Assembly (NCBI GenBank): GCA_964413715.1
Contig: CAYPSN010000002.1
Location: 850-64,849 of the forward strand
Direction of reading: 5' to 3'
Source: an uncultured Candidatus Saccharibacteria bacterium
GTDB taxonomy: Bacteria; Patescibacteriota; Saccharimonadia; CAILAD01; JADZBC01
Length of the DNA: 64,000 bases
Shown: in pieces, positions 8,156 through 19,270 of the stretch
Layout of the letters: every line of letters starts with the position of its first letter
How positions within the stretch are numbered: the stretch's first letter is position 1
The notes under the pieces: model-generated
The model's input: the letters and a program-made list of their open reading frames with translations, nothing else
The model's database searches: none
Told to the model about the DNA's origin: nothing
Translations under genes and position numbers: made by a program

Positions 8156-8232
8156 GGGCCCGTGGTGTAGAGGCCTAACATGCCTCCCTGTCACGGAGGA
8201 GATCGCCGGTTCGAATCCGGTCGGGCCCGCCA
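8156..8232 (+). tRNA. tRNA-Asp (anticodon GTC)
   Basis: GGGCCCGTGGTGTAGAGGCCTAACATGCCTCCCTGTCACGGAGGAGATCGCCGGTTCGAATCCGGTCGGGCCCGCCA. Confidence 0.9.
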
Positions 8233-8369
8233 GATTACTTATACCCATGACTCCCGTTAGGAGTCATTTTTTATTGACATTTTAGTTTTTTTATGCCAAT
8301 ATATATACTTATAGGTCATTGAATTCAATTCAACCCCGCACCCCAACAACGCCCCCTTGGAGGCACCAA

Positions 8370-9383
8370 ATGGACTTGACCGTAAAGATCCTGGACAACC
8401 AGGCCAACATCCATCGTGGGGACGTTCTCGTCGCTTCGATCGGCCTTGACCCCTGGGAACAGGTGGACAAAGTCATCCTCATGCCCGACATCACGCAGGA
8501 CGAGACGGAACACGTCATTCGTCTCGCGGGTTCCCACATCCGTCACTTCGTTCGTCACCGCGACACCCCCGTGTTCGGCGAGCTGATGCGAGCGAAGCAC
8601 TACGACAACACCCTGACGTGCGCCATGTCGCACGAGATGCTGGAGACCCAGCAGATCGCCGACGACGTGAAGGAGATGGAAGTCGACTTCATCAAAGAGA
8701 TGTGCAAGCAGCTCTACATCCCGATCATCGTCGCTGTGTTCAAGACTGTCGACGAAGCCATCCTTTCGATCCTCTCTGACCCCCGTCTCGACAGCAAGAT
8801 CAGGTACGAGACGACTGAGAAGGACTTCCTGGGTGAAATGGGGCTCACGGTCTACTCGGAGAAGGATTCGGGCTTCCGATTCTGGCACTCTGTCATGATC
8901 GGCGGCTTCGACCTCGATGTCGTCCCTCTCTACCACCCCGTTCGACAGGACGGCCGCTCATCAGTGGGCATGATCAACGGTGACACGGATGCATACATCC
9001 GTGGTCGATCAGTCCGTTTCATCCATGCCCCTCAGGAAGCTCTGGTCGCCAGCAGTGGCTGGGCCACCTGGAGCTACGTCAACCACCCTTACTACGCGAA
9101 AGGACCCACGTTCGGCATGAAGATCATCCCGTGGGAGCTGCTTTCGCAGGAAGGGGCTGACAGCCTGAAGGATGTCCTGCTCGGTGCCTTGGAGATCGAC
9201 GGCAAGTACGTCGAGGTCAGCGGTGGCTTCCGTGCCCCTGCGGGTACGCCTTCCATACCTCACGGAGGAAAGCGGCTCGGATCTGAGGAACGAGCATACT
9301 GGTCGATCCAGGTGCTCAAGCAAGAAGGTGAGCTCGAAGGATCTCACATCCCTAGCTGGGCCGCATCCGTGGCCCGCGTCTGA
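8370..9383 (+). CDS. hypothetical protein (337 aa), high-GC island gene
   Basis: ATG at 8370 preceded by GGAGG; the ORF-track TTG extension is unlikely. Visibly GC-rich codons; no recognisable motif. Confidence 0.5.
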   Translation: MDLTVKILDNQANIHRGDVLVASIGLDPWEQVDKVILMPDITQDETEHVIRLAGSHIRHFVRHRDTPVFGELMRAKHYDNTLTCAMSHEMLETQQIADDVKEMEVDFIKEMCKQLYIPIIVAVFKTVDEAILSILSDPRLDSKIRYETTEKDFLGEMGLTVYSEKDSGFRFWHSVMIGGFDLDVVPLYHPVRQDGRSSVGMINGDTDAYIRGRSVRFIHAPQEALVASSGWATWSYVNHPYYAKGPTFGMKIIPWELLSQEGADSLKDVLLGALEIDGKYVEVSGGFRAPAGTPSIPHGGKRLGSEERAYWSIQVLKQEGELEGSHIPSWAASVARV

Positions 9384-9391
9384 CCTACCCC

Positions 9392-9444
9392 GCCCCCACC
9401 TGATTCCTGAAAGGGATGATGGTGGGGGCACTTCTATTTGTGGG
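9392..9444 (+). terminator. intrinsic terminator of the 8370-9383 gene
   Basis: GCCCCCACC-20 nt loop-GGTGGGGGC followed by ACTTCTATTTGTG. Confidence 0.6.
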
Positions 9445-9491
9445 TATAACCAAGTTCTAACTTCGTAAGCTCTAGGGCTTACGTTTTAGCC

Positions 9492-9573: not shown

Positions 9574-10158
9574 GTGCCAGAACCAAAAAATACAAAGCGT
9601 CGTTATAAGCGCAAAACACTCACGGTCTTCGTTATGGACGCCCCGAATGTCGATGCAAGCTTCGGCCTGCTACTAGAGAGGGCCCCGCTGCCATCCGAGC
9701 GAATGCGCATGGATGCTCTTATGCAGTGGCTAGAGGGCAAGCAGCAGGCAAACGGCAGCGAGCTGTACGCCAAGATCTTCGTAAATCGTCCTGCTGAGTC
9801 AGTTGCAAGCAACAGGCAATTCGGCTGGGTGGTTGCCATGCAGAAGCTTGGCTACCATGTGTATTCAAAGATTCGAACCACTGATGACAGCGACGTTGAC
9901 GAAGATATGGTCGCATATATCAACAAGCTCGTGAAGTGCCACGAAGTTGTAGAGATCGTGCTGGCATCCAACGACGGCCAAAGGTTTCATAACATCCTGG
10001 AGATCTTGGCCTGCAACGGAGTCAAGGTAACAATCTTGGGTTTCAACGAGTTCCCAAGCATTCTCACTAGAAACGAGCTCTTCGAATTCGTCCCGTACAG
10101 CAGCATTCCTGGCCTGATGCCAGCAACGGGTTGCCAAACGGAAAGCCAAGCAACATGA
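9574..10158 (+). CDS. NYN/LabA-like (PIN-fold) nuclease domain protein
   Basis: KTLTVFVMDAPNVDASFG... resembles the NYN/DUF88 N-terminal strand plus acidic cluster. GTG start with AAAGG upstream. Confidence 0.5.
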   Translation: MPEPKNTKRRYKRKTLTVFVMDAPNVDASFGLLLERAPLPSERMRMDALMQWLEGKQQANGSELYAKIFVNRPAESVASNRQFGWVVAMQKLGYHVYSKIRTTDDSDVDEDMVAYINKLVKCHEVVEIVLASNDGQRFHNILEILACNGVKVTILGFNEFPSILTRNELFEFVPYSSIPGLMPATGCQTESQAT

Positions 10159-12772: not shown

Positions 12773-13381
12773 TTAGTCGCGGAGCTTGATGTGTACTGGC
12801 CGATCGCGGTAGTACGCGTCGATGTACCCCACAATGCCATCTGGCAACTGCGTGGACTCGTTCTCAAGCGGCATCTCTGCCTTGTACCTGATAGCGAGGT
12901 CCTTGCCAGACAGCCCCCACGGGAACTCCTCGCCCGAGCTATCGCAGGGCCGCCAGCCATGTGAGCGAATCCAGGCCAACAGGTTCTCCCTGGCGGGAGT
13001 CTTGGCAGTTGACCGAACCCACAGATGATGGTTCTTGCCCTTCAGGGTGACCCGAAAGAGGAAAAACTTCACTGGCTTGAGCTTGCGCTGTGCACTGCGA
13101 CTGGGGTGGTGAACAGGCGCTTCGGTCGCGTAAGGCGGCTCGAATTCCTCGGCGGCGAGGAGCTCCTCGGCCTCGGTAGCTCGATGGATTATGTGGTCGT
13201 CGGTTTCGTTCGCGGCGGCATTTGCCCTGCGCTCGTCGAACATGATGATCTTGCCATCGTGGCCGTCGAGAACCACAGGATCACCACGCGTGAAGTCAGG
13301 TTCGGCGATGTGCGCACCGCAACTTGGACAGGTACTCGCCTCGATCTCATCGATCGAGGCTTCACAGATTGGACACTGCAT
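12773..13381 (-). CDS. hypothetical protein with N-terminal CPxC..CPxC zinc ribbon, high GC
   Basis: ATG at 13381 (MQCPICEASIDEIEASTCPSCGAH) with AAAGGA/GAGGA upstream; visibly GC-rich. Confidence 0.45.
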   Translation of the reverse strand: MQCPICEASIDEIEASTCPSCGAHIAEPDFTRGDPVVLDGHDGKIIMFDERRANAAANETDDHIIHRATEAEELLAAEEFEPPYATEAPVHHPSRSAQRKLKPVKFFLFRVTLKGKNHHLWVRSTAKTPARENLLAWIRSHGWRPCDSSGEEFPWGLSGKDLAIRYKAEMPLENESTQLPDGIVGYIDAYYRDRPVHIKLRD

Positions 13382-13495
13382 ATCCTCGATCCTTTCAATC
13401 GATTGTGCGGACGCCCTAAAAATACAACACTTATGGTTTTTTGTCAATCCCTGGTAACAACTTTTAGTGTATAATTATGGACGCGTGCGAATTAC

Positions 13496-13571
13496 GCCCT
13501 GGTAGCTCAGTGGATAGAGCGTCTCCGTCCTAAGGAGAGCGTCGGGGGTTCGATTCCCTCCCAGGGTACCA
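13496..13571 (+). tRNA. tRNA-Arg (anticodon CCT)
   Basis: GCCCTGGTAGCTCAGTGGATAGAGCGTCTCCGTCCTAAGGAGAGCGTCGGGGGTTCGATTCCCTCCCAGGGTACCA. Confidence 0.85.
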
Positions 13572-13576
13572 TTCTA

Positions 13577-13605
13577 TTGACTTTTTTAATTACTTATGCT
13601 ATTAT
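13577..13605 (+). promoter_or_regulatory. near-consensus sigma70 promoter
   Basis: TTGACT-17 nt-TATTAT, followed by a 5'-UTR hairpin GGTACCAG..CTGGTACC and RBS AAAGGAGG. Confidence 0.55.
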
Positions 13606-13672
13606 AGGCAAGTTCTAACGTTCAGGTACCAGTCACACAAAGCTGGTACCGCTCCTACCCAAAGGAGGCGCC

Positions 13673-14002
13673 GTGAGGCGTATCTTGATTGCAATGCTGA
13701 TCGTACTCTTCGGAGTCTGCATCAGCTCGGTCGCCCCTGCGGCTACCCAGGGCGGCACGCCACCAACGACGGTACCGCCCATCACGCCCACGACAGCGTG
13801 GCAGACAGTTCCGCCGACTGTGGATCCGCCCACCATCACCCCGTCGACTGTTCGGCCGTCAGCCAGCAACAGACCATCAACGGTCGAGGTCAAAGGGTTG
13901 CACGAAGTAATCGTGCTGATGCGATGGGTGGTGGTGGCCGCCTTTCTCGCATGTGCGATCCTCATATGGATCCTCATGCGGTTGTACCGGCCAAGCCGGT
14001 GA
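13673..14002 (+). CDS. small secreted/anchored Pro/Thr-rich protein (signal peptide, PT-rich linker, C-terminal TM)
   Basis: GTG start 6 nt after AAAGGAGG. MRRILIAMLIVLFGVCISSVAPAA signal peptide, TPPTTVPPITPTT repeats, C-terminal helix WVVVAAFLACAILIWILM. Confidence 0.5.
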   Translation: MRRILIAMLIVLFGVCISSVAPAATQGGTPPTTVPPITPTTAWQTVPPTVDPPTITPSTVRPSASNRPSTVEVKGLHEVIVLMRWVVVAAFLACAILIWILMRLYRPSR

Positions 14003-14008
14003 TATTCC

Positions 14009-14057
14009 GCCTGGCGGGGACGACAAGATCGTCCTTAGCCGGGCGATCTTTCGTTTA
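14009..14057 (+). repeat. copy 1 of ~47-bp direct repeat (hairpin + T-run, terminator-like)
   Basis: CGCCTGGCGGGGACGACAAGATCGTCCTTAGCCGGGCGATCTTTCGTTT; second copy at 14491-14542 with 4-5 mismatches. Confidence 0.7.
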
Positions 14058-14145
14058 GGAGAAATAATCAATGACGGCAAGTGGTATAATTGTATTCTCC
14101 CGCACAGTCCAAACCACTCCGCTTCGCAGATCAAAGTGAGGAATA

Positions 14146-14463
14146 ATGAAGAGACCACCCCGCCCCAGAAGCTTGGATGATGTTAACCAGCTCGTAGCGG
14201 AGCTACTTGAAACTGGTAGGCCAAAGGTAGCGAATCTCCCTATCCTCAACCGAGATGACGCAATCTTAAGAATGCTGGCGCTCATTGGGATTTGCTGGGG
14301 ACGAGACGAAGCCATGCTCGAATCGATCCTGGGTGAAGATGTCAAATTGGTTGATCCAGCAGAGAACGTAAAGTTTGCAGTTCGACAGCAAGACGGCTCT
14401 TACGTATTTGTAGACAAGTTTGACCAACTCAAGTCAACCGTCTACTACATGCTGAGCTCCTAG
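14146..14463 (+). CDS. hypothetical protein (105 aa) flanked by the direct repeats
   Basis: ORF with lower GC than its high-GC neighbours; no recognisable motif. Confidence 0.4.
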   Translation: MKRPPRPRSLDDVNQLVAELLETGRPKVANLPILNRDDAILRMLALIGICWGRDEAMLESILGEDVKLVDPAENVKFAVRQQDGSYVFVDKFDQLKSTVYYMLSS

Positions 14464-14490
14464 ATGAACTGCACAAAGCAGAGAGTTAAT

Positions 14491-14542
14491 CGCCCGACGG
14501 GGACGACAAGATCTTCCTTAGCCGGGCGGTCTTTCGTTTTTA
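14491..14542 (+). repeat. copy 2 of ~47-bp direct repeat
   Basis: CGCCCGACGGGGACGACAAGATCTTCCTTAGCCGGGCGGTCTTTCGTTTTT. Confidence 0.7.
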
Positions 14543-14643
14543 CACATAGAACTGCTTGCGCTTGAAATAACGAACAATTTGTTTAATAATCTGCTCCATG
14601 CATCGTGCAACAAGCGTACGAGCAAGAACCCCTAGGGGGAACA

Positions 14644-14871
14644 TTGAAAGTAATCGGAACAGCAGTCTCGCTCGGCCTCACGGCCGCAGTGGGTGCAGTC
14701 AGCCTGGCACTCGCCAGCGAACGCAAGCACGCCGACCAAGCTCGGCCGAAGGAGCTCCAATACCAGGGAGGGCCTCACTTCCTCGACCAGCTGGTCGGAG
14801 CCATGTACATCTTGGCGCCCATCGCCCTGGTGTGGCGTGCCACGCGCAAGCTGCGCGGAGGTGGCTGGTGA
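14644..14871 (+). CDS. small 2-TM membrane protein (75 aa), first gene of a high-GC overlapping four-gene operon
   Basis: TTG start after GGGGGA; two hydrophobic helices. Start is ambiguous; the ORF track GTG is at 14605. Confidence 0.4.
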   Translation: MKVIGTAVSLGLTAAVGAVSLALASERKHADQARPKELQYQGGPHFLDQLVGAMYILAPIALVWRATRKLRGGGW

Positions 14872-15017
14872 TCAAGCGATTCGTCGGCAAGACCCTGCTC
14901 TACACTGCAACGATCGGTGCTGGTGCTGCTATCGGCATCGGCTCGGTCAGGGTTGGTGAATGGGCGCTCCTCCACGGTTGGGATCGGCTGATGAACCCAA
15001 GTGCGAGGCGCCCATGA
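14868..15017 (+). CDS. hypothetical 49-aa protein, GTGA-overlap coupled
   Basis: GTG at 14868 overlaps the upstream TGA (GTGA). Same frame as ORF-track 14598-15017. Confidence 0.35.
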   Translation: MIKRFVGKTLLYTATIGAGAAIGIGSVRVGEWALLHGWDRLMNPSARRP

Positions 15018-15277
15018 GCCAGCCCTACAGAGGCAAAGACCCGAACTTCACCCAAGAGTGGTGGGATCTGGTTTGCTCGGCCCCTGAAAAGATCGAGCAT
15101 GCTCGCGCTAAGACCAAGGCAATTCGTGAAGGCAGAGCTCCAGTCGTACACTACGACTACGGCGATGTATTAACCAAGGCTGGCCTTGATGCTGCTGCCG
15201 AAGTCTTAGCTAGGGACAAGAAAACGCGTGTCAGTCAAGCTGACCGACTCCTGCCAGCGAGTCTCCGCGATGAATAA
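15014..15277 (+). CDS. hypothetical 87-aa protein, ATGA-overlap coupled
   Basis: ATG at 15014 overlaps the upstream TGA; sequence MSQPYRGKDPNFTQEWWDL... Confidence 0.4.
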   Translation: MSQPYRGKDPNFTQEWWDLVCSAPEKIEHARAKTKAIREGRAPVVHYDYGDVLTKAGLDAAAEVLARDKKTRVSQADRLLPASLRDE

Positions 15278-15362
15278 GCCAACCAGGACCCAGCGGCTGG
15301 CCTACCGAATAGGTCGATTCTTCGGCCTGGTCATCGGCGCGTTCCTGCGCGTCTTCGACTAA
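15270..15362 (+). CDS. 30-aa basic amphipathic peptide (not in ORF track)
   Basis: ATG at 15270 overlaps the upstream gene end (ATGAATAA); MNKPTRTQRLAYRIGRFFGLVIGAFLRVFD, then stop. Confidence 0.3.
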   Translation: MNKPTRTQRLAYRIGRFFGLVIGAFLRVFD

Positions 15363-15417
15363 AATAGCGCGGGGTAAGCGGCGATTGCAGCCGGCCCCGC
15401 AGACTATGCCCATAACC

Positions 15418-15446
15418 AAAAGCCCCGAGATATCTCGGGGCTTTCA
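15418..15446. terminator. bidirectional intrinsic terminator
   Basis: AAA-AGCCCCGAGA-TA-TCTCGGGGCT-TTCA; 10-bp perfect stem between the convergent operon and the NUDIX gene. Confidence 0.7.
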
Positions 15447-15461
15447 TCGTATTGATTGCTA

Positions 15462-15884
15462 TTACTTCAGCCAATCCCTGTATTGCTCTAACTGAAATCG
15501 TGTCATTGGTGTCAAATCTTCCTGGGCTAATGCATCTTCGAGAGGATGCCATTTGAACTCTAACACCCTGTCATACTCTGTTCTGTGAGGCTCTCCACTC
15601 TTCCAGTCACACTGAAACGTTATTCCCACCCAGTGCTCTTTGCCATCTGGACTTTGGCGCACGTTGCTACCAATAATTTTGCCAGGGCTAACTTCGAGGC
15701 CAGCTTCTTCGCGCACTTCCCGCTTCACTGCCTCTTCCAAGCTCTCGCCAAACTCTACGAGGCCACCTAGTAGCTCCCACTTGTAATGTTGGTCTCGCGC
15801 CTTGGGCCCACGTAAGCCGAGTAGAATGTTACCGTCCTTGATAATAAGAGCGCCAACGCCGACTCGAAACTTCTGTTCTTCCAT
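15462..15884 (-). CDS. NUDIX hydrolase
   Basis: Nudix box GGLVEFGESLEEAVKREVREEAGL. Confidence 0.85.
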   Translation of the reverse strand: MEEQKFRVGVGALIIKDGNILLGLRGPKARDQHYKWELLGGLVEFGESLEEAVKREVREEAGLEVSPGKIIGSNVRQSPDGKEHWVGITFQCDWKSGEPHRTEYDRVLEFKWHPLEDALAQEDLTPMTRFQLEQYRDWLK

Positions 15885-15887
15885 AAC

Positions 15888-16379
15888 CTAGTGTCCAAAG
15901 GTATGAATCTGGTGCACGGTCTTATAGTCCTGCACATCTTCGTCGGCAAACCATAGCTTAATTTCCGCTTCGGCCTCTTCTGCATTACCCGAAGCATGCA
16001 CTAAGTTGCGTAGTGACTTGTTGTTACTATCGCCCCAGCTGTAGTTCTCATGAGCAAAGTCGCCACGAATGGTGCCTGGTGCAGCCCCAAGAGGTTCGGT
16101 CGTTCCAACCATCTTGCGCACAGCAGCAATCACCCCAACGCCTTCTAGTACGAATGCAAGCACAGGGCCTTCCGACAAGTAGGCAGTTGCCTGGTCAAAA
16201 ACCTTCTGGCTAACACGCTCGGCCAAGCCGTCGTAATGAGCATCGGCGTGCTCCTTGCTTACGTTCATAAGCTTCATGCCTACAACTTTCATACCTGCGT
16301 CTTCAAAGCGTTGAATAATCCGACCCATCAGCCCTCGTGCAACTCCATCGGGCTTAATTATTACGAGTGTTCTTTCCAT
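15888..16379 (-). CDS. ndk: nucleoside diphosphate kinase
   Basis: MERTLVIIKPDGVARGLMGRIIQRFE...NLVHASGNAEEAEAEIKLWF. Confidence 0.9.
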   Translation of the reverse strand: MERTLVIIKPDGVARGLMGRIIQRFEDAGMKVVGMKLMNVSKEHADAHYDGLAERVSQKVFDQATAYLSEGPVLAFVLEGVGVIAAVRKMVGTTEPLGAAPGTIRGDFAHENYSWGDSNNKSLRNLVHASGNAEEAEAEIKLWFADEDVQDYKTVHQIHTFGH

Positions 16380-18358: not shown

Positions 18359-19270
18359 ATGTTTAATGACTACATGGCTGATTTTTTGGAATACATGGAA
18401 GTAGAACGCGGGCGCAGCGTTAAGACGATAGAAAACTACGCCCACTACTTGAATCGCTTCGATGAATTCGCTGGCGAAATTAAGGTTGAAAAGATCACGC
18501 TCGATACTATTAGCAAGTGGCGCCAATGGTTGAACCGCTACGTTACCGACGACGGTCGCAGTATTAGCCGCACCACCCAAAACTACCATCTAATAGCTAT
18601 GCGAAGTTTTCTGCGCTACCTGGTGAAGCGGGACGTTAAAAGTCTGAGCCCCGACAAGATAGAGCTCGCTCAAGCCAAACGACCACAGGTGAGCTTTCTG
18701 GATAAAGATGAGGTACATAGGCTCATGGAGGCAGTAAAAACCGACACCATGACTGGCCTGCGTGATAAAGCAATCCTAGCCATGCTATTCTCCACTGGCC
18801 TGCGCGTGTCAGAACTAGTAGCACTCAATCGCGACAGCGTTAACTTGGATCGCGGCGAGTTTAGCGTACGCGGTAAAGGGCAAAAGGATCGGCCAGTCTA
18901 CTTGAGCGAATCGGCCGCGTTAATCCTTAGTTACTATCTGGAAGCCCGCCACGACGAGTACGATCCGCTCTTCATCCACTTTAGCGGCACCAAAAGCAAC
19001 CTCGAAGGTGGCGAATACACACGCCTAACTACCCGTAGCATTCAGCGCATTGTAGAAAAATATACGAAGCTCGCTGGCATTACCAAACACGTTACGCCCC
19101 ACACCCTGCGCCACAGCTTTGCCACTGACCTGCTTATGAATGGCGCCGACATCCGCAGCGTGCAAGGGCTATTGGGCCACTCCAACATATCCACAACGCA
19201 AGTGTATACCCACATTACCGACCCGCACCTAAAGGACGTGCACAAGAAGTTTCATTCGGACAACAGTTAA
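18359..19270 (+). CDS. tyrosine site-specific recombinase XerC/XerD family
   Basis: Catalytic tail LRHSFATDLLMNGADIRSVQGLLGHSNISTTQVYTHI; 303 aa. Confidence 0.85.
   Translation: MFNDYMADFLEYMEVERGRSVKTIENYAHYLNRFDEFAGEIKVEKITLDTISKWRQWLNRYVTDDGRSISRTTQNYHLIAMRSFLRYLVKRDVKSLSPDKIELAQAKRPQVSFLDKDEVHRLMEAVKTDTMTGLRDKAILAMLFSTGLRVSELVALNRDSVNLDRGEFSVRGKGQKDRPVYLSESAALILSYYLEARHDEYDPLFIHFSGTKSNLEGGEYTRLTTRSIQRIVEKYTKLAGITKHVTPHTLRHSFATDLLMNGADIRSVQGLLGHSNISTTQVYTHITDPHLKDVHKKFHSDNS

What the first reader, a model, noticed from the sequence alone, without database searches (positions are those of the whole stretch)
12773..15450. Second mosaic of high-GC modules next to tRNA-Arg, including a compact four-gene overlapping operon of tiny proteins
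Around tRNA-Arg lie: a Zn-ribbon protein gene (12773-13381); a PT-rich secreted protein driven by a near-consensus promoter and AAAGGAGG; a repeat-flanked orphan ORF; and a visibly GC-rich operon 14644-15362. The operon's four genes are 75, 49, 87 and 30 aa and overlap by GTGA, ATGA and ATGAATAA, ending at a perfect 10-bp bidirectional terminator. The 30-aa basic amphipathic peptide (MNKPTRTQRLAYRIGRFFGLVIGAFLRVFD) is not in the ORF track. Tight coupling of very small membrane or amphipathic proteins resembles holin/antiholin cassettes, small toxin cassettes or bacteriocin-immunity cassettes. No homology can be named.
Basis: partly seen in the sequence, partly recalled or inferred. Interest (0 to 1): 0.5.

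Follow-up and report, generated by a model that had tools for sequence, protein, structure and literature searches.

The report
Conserved orphan operon of four tiny proteins
Next to a tRNA-Arg gene in a Saccharibacteria-type genome lies a real operon of four tiny proteins with overlapping genes, including an unannotated 30-residue peptide; it is conserved only in a handful of close relatives, matches no known family, and its function is still unknown.

Summary
All features are present: the Zn-ribbon gene, tRNA-Arg(CCT), the PT-rich membrane protein with a near-consensus promoter and AAAGGAGG, the 49-nt repeats around an orphan ORF, and four ORFs of 75, 49, 87 and 30 aa. The ORFs overlap by GTGA, ATGA and ATGAATAA and end at a bidirectional hairpin.

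The operon is real. Six other variants exist, all in Saccharibacteria/Patescibacteria contigs and all next to ndk-mnmG. They keep the promoter, 5' UTR, TTG start, 4-11-nt overlaps and 3' hairpins, and have dN/dS of 0.04-0.6. The 30-aa peptide D is the best-conserved product, with an invariant G-x3-G-x3-G cationic amphipathic helix.

The family is tiny: 3 clusters among 1.84 billion representatives. It has no phage, plasmid, Pfam, PHROG, PADLOC or PDB relative.

GC3 is raised (0.66-0.77 against 0.50±0.07) for most modules, but relatives share this, so it is not a recent import. Only orf105 is an insertion in this lineage, sitting between two copies of a terminator.

Among close relatives the middle of the operon (end of A, B, C) is swapped, replaced or deleted, while A and D persist.

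The best reading is a small membrane complex (A, B, D) with a dispensable soluble partner (C). Whether it acts like a holin or a toxin was not tested.

The parts
12773..13381 (-). ZnR: 202-aa protein with an N-terminal 4-Cys zinc ribbon, a variable acidic linker and a conserved ~100-aa C-terminal alpha/beta domain. Function unknown.
13419..13447 (-). Promoter-like site for ZnR (TTGACA-17-TATTTT).
13496..13571 (+). tRNA-Arg (anticodon CCT).
   Evidence: The same tRNA sits next to the ZnR orthologue in L013 and L020.
13577..13605 (+). Promoter-like site for the PT-rich gene (TTGACT-17-TATTAT with TG). The Shine-Dalgarno AAAGGAGG lies at 13661-13668.
   Evidence: The promoter block is conserved upstream of the L013 orthologue.
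13673..14002 (+). PT-rich 109-aa envelope protein: N-terminal hydrophobic signal or anchor, Pro/Thr-rich stalk, conserved VEVKxxHE motif, C-terminal TM anchor.
   Evidence: Fast-evolving orthologues in L013/L012 (26-33 % identity, E 1e-7 to 1e-13) and a C-terminal fragment in L018.
14008..14056 (+). Copy 1 of the 49-nt repeat: terminator hairpin plus T-rich tail of the PT-rich gene.
   Evidence: Folds at -29 kcal/mol, z -3.6.
14146..14463 (+). orf105: 105-aa soluble orphan with backbone-like GC3. It is a lineage-specific insertion between two copies of the terminator.
   Evidence: No homologue in any relative locus, and none in phages, plasmids or viral contigs. L018 has the PT-rich gene followed directly by the operon.
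14491..14539 (+). Copy 2 of the 49-nt repeat (92 % identical): terminator of orf105.
14562..14590 (+). Operon promoter (TTGAAA-17-AATAAT).
   Evidence: Conserved in L012 and L013; a TTGCAA...GATAAT counterpart is read by eye in L018.
14591..14643 (+). Conserved 5' UTR with an SD-like AGGGGGA at 14634-14640. It is not coding.
   Evidence: A 1-nt deletion in L018 puts the upstream GTG out of frame, so the TTG at 14644 is the start.
14644..14871 (+). Gene A, 75 aa: N-terminal hydrophobic segment (TM1 or signal peptide), highly conserved polar loop ASERKHAE-AR-KEV-YQGG--FLD, TM2, basic C-terminal tail.
   Evidence: dN/dS 0.23-0.42.
14868..15017 (+). Gene B, 49 aa: MIR/K start, Gly/Ala-rich hydrophobic helix of variable sequence, conserved C-terminal W-D-x2-M-N-x-S-x2-R motif.
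   Evidence: dN/dS 0.04-0.55. The 15-nt and 3-nt indels are in frame.
15014..15277 (+). Gene C, 87 aa: soluble and predicted helical, with a conserved N-terminal 43 residues and a variable C-terminal half. Replaced in L019 and deleted in L018.
15270..15362 (+). Gene D, 30 aa: cationic amphipathic helix with invariant L-A-x2-I-G-R-F-x-G-L-x-I-G-A-x2-R. The best-conserved product.
15369..15400 (+). Conserved 3'-UTR hairpin directly after the stop codon of D.
   Evidence: A G-C to A-U exchange between the window and L013 keeps the stem (read by eye from the folds; RNAalifold counted no compensatory pair).
15419..15444 (.). Bidirectional terminator hairpin shared with the convergent NUDIX gene.
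   Evidence: The stem is invariant in all 7 variants.

Best explanation
Shown:
- Positions 14562-15444 form one transcription unit. It has its own sigma-70-type promoter, a conserved 5' UTR, four translationally coupled cistrons and two 3' hairpins.
- It is a chromosomal operon restricted to one narrow Saccharibacteria clade. It always lies beside ndk-mnmG, inside a tRNA-Arg-linked variable zone.
- All four ORFs evolve as proteins.

Inferred:
- The 4-11-nt overlaps make the products in fixed proportion, so that they assemble into one small hetero-oligomer at the cytoplasmic membrane.
- A would be a hairpin or signal-anchored protein with a conserved polar loop. B would be a short Gly/Ala-rich helix. 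D would be a cationic glycine-zipper amphipathic helix.
- C would be a dispensable cytoplasmic helical partner.
- A and D would be the constant core. The A-TM2/B/C segment would be exchangeable and is shuffled by recombination between related genomes.

Most speculative:
- Glycine zippers and a cationic amphipathic peptide point to a membrane-permeabilising or channel-like activity, in the manner of a holin or a small toxin, modulated by B and C.
- The rest of the finding (ZnR, PT-rich protein) consists of fast-evolving, clade-specific genes of the same zone.
- orf105 is a later insertion that duplicated a terminator.
For: - Conservation: the operon occurs in 7 sequence variants: the window, L012, L013, L014, L017, L018 and L019. 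The promoter, 5' UTR and TTG start are conserved. The overlaps are kept: A/B 4 nt, B/C 4 nt, C/D 4-11 nt.
- Coding signal: dN/dS is 0.04-0.64. Synonymous changes are in excess at one-sided Fisher p < 0.05 in 8 of 10 gene-pair tests; B window-L013 (p 0.087) and D L014-L012 (p 0.12) miss it. The best values are 1.3e-8 for C, 1.9e-4 for A, 8e-4 for B and 2.8e-3 for D. All coding indels are multiples of three.
- Protein features: hydrophobic segments lie at A 3-25 and 49-64 and at B 10-24. D has muH 0.68. D keeps G15, G19, G23, R16 and R27 invariant. The loop of A is the most conserved part of A.
- C is dispensable: it is fused away in L018, replaced in L019 and recombinant in L017.
- Position is fixed beside ndk in every variant whose contig reaches that far.
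- No mobile or phage link was found.
Against: - There is no expression, proteomic or interaction data.
- No homologue has a known function, and the structure models are of low confidence.
- B falls below the hydrophobicity threshold in L018 and L019, so B may not be membrane-embedded in every variant.
- The first hydrophobic segment of A could be a cleaved signal peptide (ALA|SE) rather than a TM helix.
- Translational coupling shows co-expression, not physical assembly.
- The pore or holin-like activity rests only on motif resemblance.
- Synonymous divergence of the operon is 3-4 times lower than that of adjacent ndk. This is not explained. It could mean nucleotide-level constraint or lateral exchange rather than simple vertical descent.
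Confidence: 0.5

Rival explanations
1. It is a polymorphic toxin-immunity or bacteriocin-like cassette. A membrane-damaging peptide (D, perhaps with A) is paired with variable cognate protectors or specificity subunits (B, C), and these diversify between strains.
For: - Genomes with 94-100 % identical ndk carry B alleles only 59-66 % identical at the DNA level and unrelated C genes.
- D is a 30-aa cationic amphipathic peptide.
- The conserved ends with a variable centre resemble allele-swapping loci.
Against: - There is no double-glycine or Sec leader on D, and no exporter or processing gene within 5 kb or more.
- The candidate toxin is the conserved part and the candidate immunity is dispensable: C is absent in L018 while D is kept.
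- There is no PADLOC or Pfam match.
Confidence: 0.15
2. It is a phage-derived lysis cassette or prophage remnant (holin, antiholin and spanin-like genes) captured at a tRNA integration site.
For: - A has the general outline of a class II holin: about 75 aa, two hydrophobic segments and a basic C-terminus.
- The genes overlap and lie close to a tRNA gene.
- In relatives, extra cassettes are inserted exactly at the tRNA 3' end.
Against: - There is no endolysin or any phage gene.
- There is no PHROG hit. tblastn finds nothing in 50,697 phage records, and IMG/VR holds no relative of A or C.
- The window has no tRNA 3'-end repeat.
- The chromosomal position is fixed and selection is purifying across lineages whose ndk dS is saturated.
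Confidence: 0.07
3. It is a chromosomal toxin-antitoxin or addiction-type module, in which D (or A) is a small membrane toxin held in check by another product of the operon or by an antisense RNA.
For: - D resembles type I toxins in size and character: under 60 aa, one hydrophobic or amphipathic helix, basic residues.
- The distribution is narrow and patchy.
Against: - D is the fourth cistron of a coupled operon and not a stand-alone, tightly repressed gene.
- No antisense promoter or known sRNA was found. The only Rfam hit is isrJ, at 26 bits against a gathering score of 37.
- The best antitoxin candidate, C, can be lost.
Confidence: 0.08
4. The high-GC modules are DNA recently acquired from a high-GC donor, for example an actinobacterial host, and the operon is foreign cargo without a role in this genome.
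For: GC3 is 0.66-0.77 against a backbone of 0.50±0.07. The modules are adjacent to a tRNA. Genomic islands are common in Patescibacteria (PMC12455944).
Against: - The same genes sit at the same place, with the same raised GC3, in lineages whose ndk dS is 0.5 to above 2.
- An exhaustive HMMER search with C finds no relative outside the clade. The profile search with A, which is limited by its word index, also finds none.
- Selection is purifying.
- There is no integrase or att repeat.
- An ancient acquisition cannot be excluded.
Confidence: 0.08
5. The small ORFs are chance open frames in GC-rich non-coding DNA.
For: High-GC DNA carries long spurious ORFs. One example is the 139-151-aa frame that runs through A into B in most variants.
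Against: - Substitutions peak at third positions of the proposed frames, and dN/dS is below 1.
- Indels are in frame.
- The start-stop overlaps are conserved.
- The long alternative frame is closed in L018, and in that frame substitutions are fewest at its third position.
Confidence: 0.02

Closest known systems
Class II holins with a partner small membrane protein (e.g. phage 21 S21; mycobacteriophage Ms6 Gp4/Gp5). Recalled from my own knowledge, not tested by homology.
   Same: A is about 75 aa with two hydrophobic segments and a basic C-terminal tail. It is followed by a second short hydrophobic protein in an overlapping reading frame.
   Different: There is no sequence or profile similarity to any holin family, no endolysin and no phage context. 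The locus is fixed in the chromosome and conserved under purifying selection. It also carries a conserved 30-aa amphipathic peptide and a soluble protein.
Type I toxins and other small membrane peptides (TisB, Hok, Fst, Ldr). From my own knowledge.
   Same: D is 30 aa, cationic, forms a single helix and has a glycine zipper that could oligomerise in the membrane.
   Different: D is translated as the last cistron of a coupled operon. No antisense RNA is evident. There is no family match.
Small accessory subunits of membrane machines (KdpF, CydX, AcrZ, MgtS). From my own knowledge.
   Same: They are tiny single-helix proteins encoded in operons and often missed by annotation.
   Different: Here no large partner protein is encoded in the operon or beside it. 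The neighbours are ndk, a NUDIX gene and a PT-rich anchor protein.
Genomic islands and variable zones of Patescibacteria (PMC12455944)
   Same: The segment has atypical composition, lies next to a tRNA, is rich in hypothetical genes and varies in content between relatives.
   Different: The core genes (ZnR, PT-rich, A-D) are syntenic and inherited within the clade. There is no integrase or tRNA-derived att repeat in the window.

Membership tests
Phage holin / lysis cassette | Small protein with at least one TM domain and a charged hydrophilic C-terminus. | tested here: met
   A has hydrophobic segments at 3-25 and 49-64 and the tail RATRKLRGGGW.
Phage holin / lysis cassette | Sequence or profile membership of a described holin family. 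| tested here: not met
   No Pfam, PHROG or NCBIfam hit for A, B or D.
Phage holin / lysis cassette | Adjacent endolysin and a phage or prophage context. | tested here: not met
   No enzyme domain in the locus. No phage or viral-contig relatives.
Phage holin / lysis cassette | Forms membrane lesions that release a muralytic enzyme. | not testable with these tools
   This needs expression and lysis assays.
Type I toxin-antitoxin | Small hydrophobic or amphipathic toxin peptide under 60 aa. | tested here: met
   D is 30 aa with muH 0.68 and net charge +5.
Type I toxin-antitoxin | Antisense or overlapping sRNA antitoxin. | tested here: inconclusive
   No Rfam family above threshold; isrJ reaches only 26 bits against 37. 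No antisense promoter-like site over D. Novel sRNAs cannot be excluded.
Class II bacteriocin-immunity cassette | Precursor peptide with a double-glycine or Sec leader. | tested here: not met
   D starts MNKPTRTQRLAY and has no leader (read directly).
Class II bacteriocin-immunity cassette | Dedicated ABC exporter or accessory genes nearby. | tested here: not met
   The neighbours are the PT-rich gene, orf105, NUDIX, ndk and mnmG.
tRNA-linked integrative genomic island | Atypical base composition next to a tRNA gene. | tested here: met
   GC3 0.66-0.77 against 0.50±0.07. tRNA-Arg at 13496-13571.
tRNA-linked integrative genomic island | Direct repeat of the tRNA 3' end at the distal border. | tested here: not met
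   There is only one copy of the 27-nt tRNA 3' end in 64 kb, allowing 3 mismatches.
tRNA-linked integrative genomic island | Integrase or other mobility genes inside the island. | tested here: not met
   None lies between 12773 and 15450. The XerC-like gene at 18359-19270 is conserved at the same place in relatives.
tRNA-linked integrative genomic island | Presence or absence polymorphism among relatives. | tested here: inconclusive
   orf105 and NUDIX are variable, and extra cassettes occur in L012 and L013. ZnR, PT-rich and A-B-D are conserved.
Zinc-ribbon domain families (Pfam Zn_ribbon_3, DZR, DZR_2, LysW-like) | Score above the Pfam gathering threshold. | tested here: not met
   Best hit is 15.2 bits against a cutoff of 27. 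The four Cys are nevertheless invariant in orthologues, so a zinc ribbon is likely by motif.

The most novel reading that the evidence does not exclude
The operon is a new kind of clade-specific membrane-targeting module of epibiotic Saccharibacteria. Constant pore-forming parts (A and the 30-aa glycine-zipper peptide D) would be gated or given specificity by exchangeable B/C alleles. It would serve in strain competition, phage exclusion or host-cell interaction. This would explain the allele swapping between near-identical genomes and the unusually low synonymous divergence of the conserved ends.
Probability: 0.12. Interest if true: 0.7.

Novelty: new variant of a known kind. Interest (0 to 1): 0.4.

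Why it matters
Saccharibacteria and other Patescibacteria have tiny genomes in which a large share of genes is unannotated. Conserved micro-proteins there are almost unexplored and are often not even called.

This locus supplies a clean test case. It is a four-cistron operon with a 30-aa product under purifying selection that standard ORF tracks miss. It is confined to one clade, with a recombining variable centre.

If it proves to be a membrane-permeabilising or specificity module, it could bear on how these epibionts deal with hosts, competitors or phages. If it is only an accessory membrane complex, it is an ordinary orphan operon, and the main value is the annotation correction: the TTG start of A, and genes B and D.

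Tried and rejected
- A concatenated A+B+C+D query in the search for homologous proteins returned nothing, not even the proteins themselves. It was uninformative and cost one search.
- Both metagenome-contig scans found nothing: the A profile (its patterns included the non-ATG start) and the C profile.
- Viral contig scans with A, C, orf105 and ZnR were all negative.
- tblastn of the concatenated products against phages and plasmids gave no match.
- Pfam, PHROGs, PADLOC and NCBIfam gave nothing above threshold.
- PDB sequence searches gave E > 0.9.
- I tested whether the repeat preceding cassettes in relatives is a decayed tRNA 3' half. It is not significant beyond the terminal GTACCA: 348 of 1000 shuffles score as well. 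The idea was dropped as a claim.
- I considered integron attC sites for the 49-nt repeats and rejected this by reading. There are no RYYYAAC/GTTRRRY core sites. The repeats fold as ordinary terminators with a T-rich tail.
- The gene-caller start of A (GTG 14605, 88 aa) is rejected. It is out of frame in L018.
- A literature search for Saccharibacteria plus holin found nothing relevant.


Full report
**What is in the window**

The 64-kb window has 48.7 % GC. The neighbours of the finding are ordinary housekeeping genes:
- a PrsA-like rotamase and a bPH_2 membrane protein on the left;
- NUDIX, ndk, mnmG and a XerC-like recombinase on the right, then a type IV pilus cluster.

The same contig occurs in several metagenome assemblies. 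The nearest species-level relatives in GTDB are MAGs labelled Patescibacteria and Candidatus Saccharibacteria.

**Check of the observation**

The details are listed under the observation check. Two refinements follow.

First, the composition shift is real, but only for five of the seven ORFs. ZnR, PT-rich, A, B and D have GC3 of 0.66-0.77. The 46 long ORFs of the window average 0.499 ± 0.070. C and orf105 are backbone-like at 0.55.

Second, the 49-nt 'repeats flanking an orphan ORF' are two copies of a terminator: a hairpin of -29 or -19.7 kcal/mol followed by TCTTTCGTTT. The first copy ends the PT-rich gene and the second ends orf105.

**Is the four-gene operon real?**

Yes. A pattern scan of one genome per GTDB species with protein C found two loci, L012 and L013. 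An exhaustive HMMER search of 1.84 billion cluster representatives with C found only three clusters. A profile of A found four 90 % clusters among 5.8 billion. Fetching their contigs gave L014, L017, L018 and L019.

With the window this makes seven sequence variants. In each of them A, B and D are present in the same order. The evidence that they code for protein is as follows.
- The -35/-10 hexamers are conserved in L012 and L013, with a TTGCAA...GATAAT counterpart read by eye in L018.
- The 45-nt leader, the AGGGGGA Shine-Dalgarno and the TTG start are conserved in L012, L013 and L018.
- The junctions stay overlapped everywhere: A/B by 4 nt, B/C by 4 nt and C/D by 4, 8 or 11 nt.
- Indels inside the ORFs are 15, 3 and 3 nt. 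Those in the 3' UTR are 1, 2 and 12 nt.
- Nei-Gojobori dN/dS is 0.23-0.42 for A, 0.04-0.55 for B, 0.17-0.63 for C and 0.12-0.64 for D. Substitutions are concentrated at third positions.
- The excess of synonymous change is significant (one-sided Fisher p < 0.05) in 8 of 10 gene-pair tests. B in window-L013 (p 0.087) and D in L014-L012 (p 0.12) are the exceptions.
- A long alternative frame runs through A into B in most variants. It shows the wrong positional pattern and is closed in L018.
- A 1-nt deletion in the L018 leader puts the GTG used by gene callers (the 88-aa version) out of frame.
- B is omitted by the callers in some assemblies. D was called on only one contig, L005.

**What the products look like**

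- **A** has an N-terminal hydrophobic stretch, which may be a TM helix or a signal peptide ending ALA|SE. After it comes an almost invariant polar loop (ASERKHAE-AR-KEV-YQGG--FLD), a second hydrophobic helix and a basic tail.
- **B** starts MIR/K. It has a Gly/Ala-rich hydrophobic helix that differs strongly between variants and a conserved end, W-D-x2-M-N-x-S-x2-R. Its hydrophobicity falls below the threshold in L018 and L019.
- **C** is soluble and predicted helical, with a mean pLDDT of only 64. Its first 43 residues carry 20 invariant positions. The rest is variable.
- **D** is a 30-31-aa cationic helix with a hydrophobic moment of 0.68. The motif L-A-x2-I-G-R-F-x-G-L-x-I-G-A-x2-R is invariant, which gives a G-x3-G-x3-G zipper with arginines on one face.

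None of the four matches Pfam, PHROGs, NCBIfam, PADLOC or PDB sequences. The structure searches gave nothing significant.

**Evolutionary behaviour**

The operon has a fixed address, immediately upstream of ndk and convergent with it. A NUDIX gene lies between them only in the window and in L018.

No relative was found in 50,697 phage records, in 72,556 plasmids or in IMG/VR. The window holds no paralogue.

Raised GC3 is shared by all variants: 0.65-0.76 for A against 0.49-0.56 for ndk and mnmG in the same contigs. The composition is therefore an old and maintained property, not the mark of a recent import.

Two further features are unusual.

(i) The centre of the operon is mosaic.
- L012 and L019 have ndk 94-100 % identical and D 94 % identical. 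Identity falls to 59-66 % from the second helix of A through B, and to 31-42 % over C.
- In L019, C is an unrelated 68-aa protein that shares only the last residues.
- L013 and L017 have identical A and almost identical B, but different 3' halves of C.
- In L018, C is deleted and its first codons are fused to D, giving a 43-aa product.
- A and D are thus the constant parts, B is an exchangeable allele and C is dispensable.

(ii) The operon has 3-4 times lower synonymous divergence than ndk in the same genome pairs. A has dS 0.5-0.7 against about 2.3 for the window and L013, and 0.17 against 0.62 for L012 and L013. I cannot tell whether this reflects constraint on GC-rich codons, constraint on the RNA, or lateral exchange of the operon among relatives.

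**The other modules**

- **PT-rich protein.** It has a signal or anchor segment, a Pro/Thr stalk, the motif VEVKxxHE and a C-terminal anchor. Fast-evolving orthologues exist in L012/L013, and a C-terminal fragment lies in L018 directly upstream of the operon.
- **orf105.** It has no homologue in any relative, nor in phages, plasmids or viral contigs. L018 shows the PT-rich gene followed by the operon with no such gene between them. orf105 is therefore an insertion in the window's lineage that carries a second copy of the terminator.
- **Variable slots in relatives.** In L012, L013 and L017 the same slot holds two other small membrane ORFs. In L012 and L013 a further 2.7 kb lies between tRNA-Arg and the PT-rich promoter. 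It is built of two units with shared flanks and different cargo, and each unit begins at GTACCA, the last six bases of the tRNA.
- **Nature of the zone.** It is thus a cassette-accreting variable region. The window itself shows no tRNA-end repeat and no integrase. The apparent 'pseudo-tRNA end' in relatives is not statistically supported.

**Mechanism**

Shown:
- one promoter, four coupled cistrons and two 3' hairpins;
- purifying selection on all four products;
- a hydrophobic or amphipathic character for A, D and, in most variants, B;
- C is dispensable.

Inferred: the overlaps serve proportional co-synthesis of subunits that assemble into a small membrane complex. A and D would form the core. 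B would be a variable partner that may contact the second helix of A, which changes together with it in the four allele classes. That number is too small to test.

Speculative: the glycine zipper and the cationic amphipathic helix suggest oligomerisation into a pore or channel-like structure. Membership of those families fails wherever it could be tested: no homology, no endolysin or phage context, no leader or exporter, and no antisense RNA detected.

**Verdict**

Its family is extremely small and restricted to one Saccharibacteria clade, and its function is unknown.

It is best filed as an orphan operon of small membrane proteins in a tRNA-linked variable zone. It resembles known small membrane-peptide cassettes in outline but belongs to none of them. 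Interest is moderate. The allele swapping in the centre and the low synonymous divergence are the features most worth following.

Noticed in passing
L013:5535-8290 and L012:80-2970: In two relatives the DNA between tRNA-Arg and the PT-rich gene is a tandem of two units of about 1.2 kb. They share flanks (direct repeats of 50-169 nt, 85-100 % identical) but carry different cargo genes. Each unit begins at GTACCA, the last six bases of the tRNA, followed by the same hairpin. This looks like serial cassette insertion at the tRNA 3' end. The similarity of the repeat to the tRNA itself is not significant.
   Followed up: partly
window 14644-15362 versus 15888-16379 (and the same genes in L012-L014, L019): Synonymous divergence of the operon is 3-4 times lower than that of the adjacent ndk gene in the same genome pairs. 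This is unexplained. It may reflect codon or RNA constraint, GC-biased conversion or lateral exchange.
   Followed up: partly
L019:584-790; L018:798-929; L017:748-975: Gene C is replaced by an unrelated 68-aa ORF in L019. In L018 it is deleted, with its start fused to D. In L017 it is recombinant after residue 43. The flanking genes stay nearly identical to close relatives.
   Followed up: yes
window 14605-14643: Gene callers start gene A at GTG 14605 (88 aa). A 1-nt deletion in the same leader of L018 shows that this stretch is a conserved 5' UTR and that TTG 14644 is the start.
   Followed up: yes
window 15369-15400: A second conserved hairpin lies directly after the stop codon of D, upstream of the bidirectional terminator. 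A G-C to A-U exchange between the window and L013, seen by eye in the single-sequence folds, keeps the stem; RNAalifold counted no compensatory pair. It has no U-tail and its role is unknown.
   Followed up: partly
window 15462-15884: The NUDIX hydrolase gene between the operon and ndk is present only in the window and in L018. In L012, L013, L014, L017 and L019 the operon terminator abuts ndk.
   Followed up: partly
window 8319-9383 (also 9574-10158): Another GC3-rich ORF (354 aa by the ORF listing; called as 337 aa) has GC3 of 0.75 and no Pfam hit on record. It lies just downstream of tRNA-Asp (8156-8232) and is followed by a weak NYN-domain gene.
   Followed up: no
L013:9030-9215 and 9245-9472 (same in L012 and L017): Two further small single-helix membrane ORFs (61 aa and about 75 aa) occupy the slot between the PT-rich gene and the operon in relatives, where the window has orf105.
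   Followed up: no
L014:580-1935: In L014 the gene upstream of the operon, divergently oriented, encodes a 430-451-aa protein with a sigma-70 region 4 domain. It is absent from the window.
   Followed up: no
window 13621-13655: The 5' UTR of the PT-rich gene holds an inverted repeat, GGTACCAG-N10-CTGGTACC. It repeats the GGTACCA of the tRNA 3' end, and this may be coincidence.
   Followed up: no
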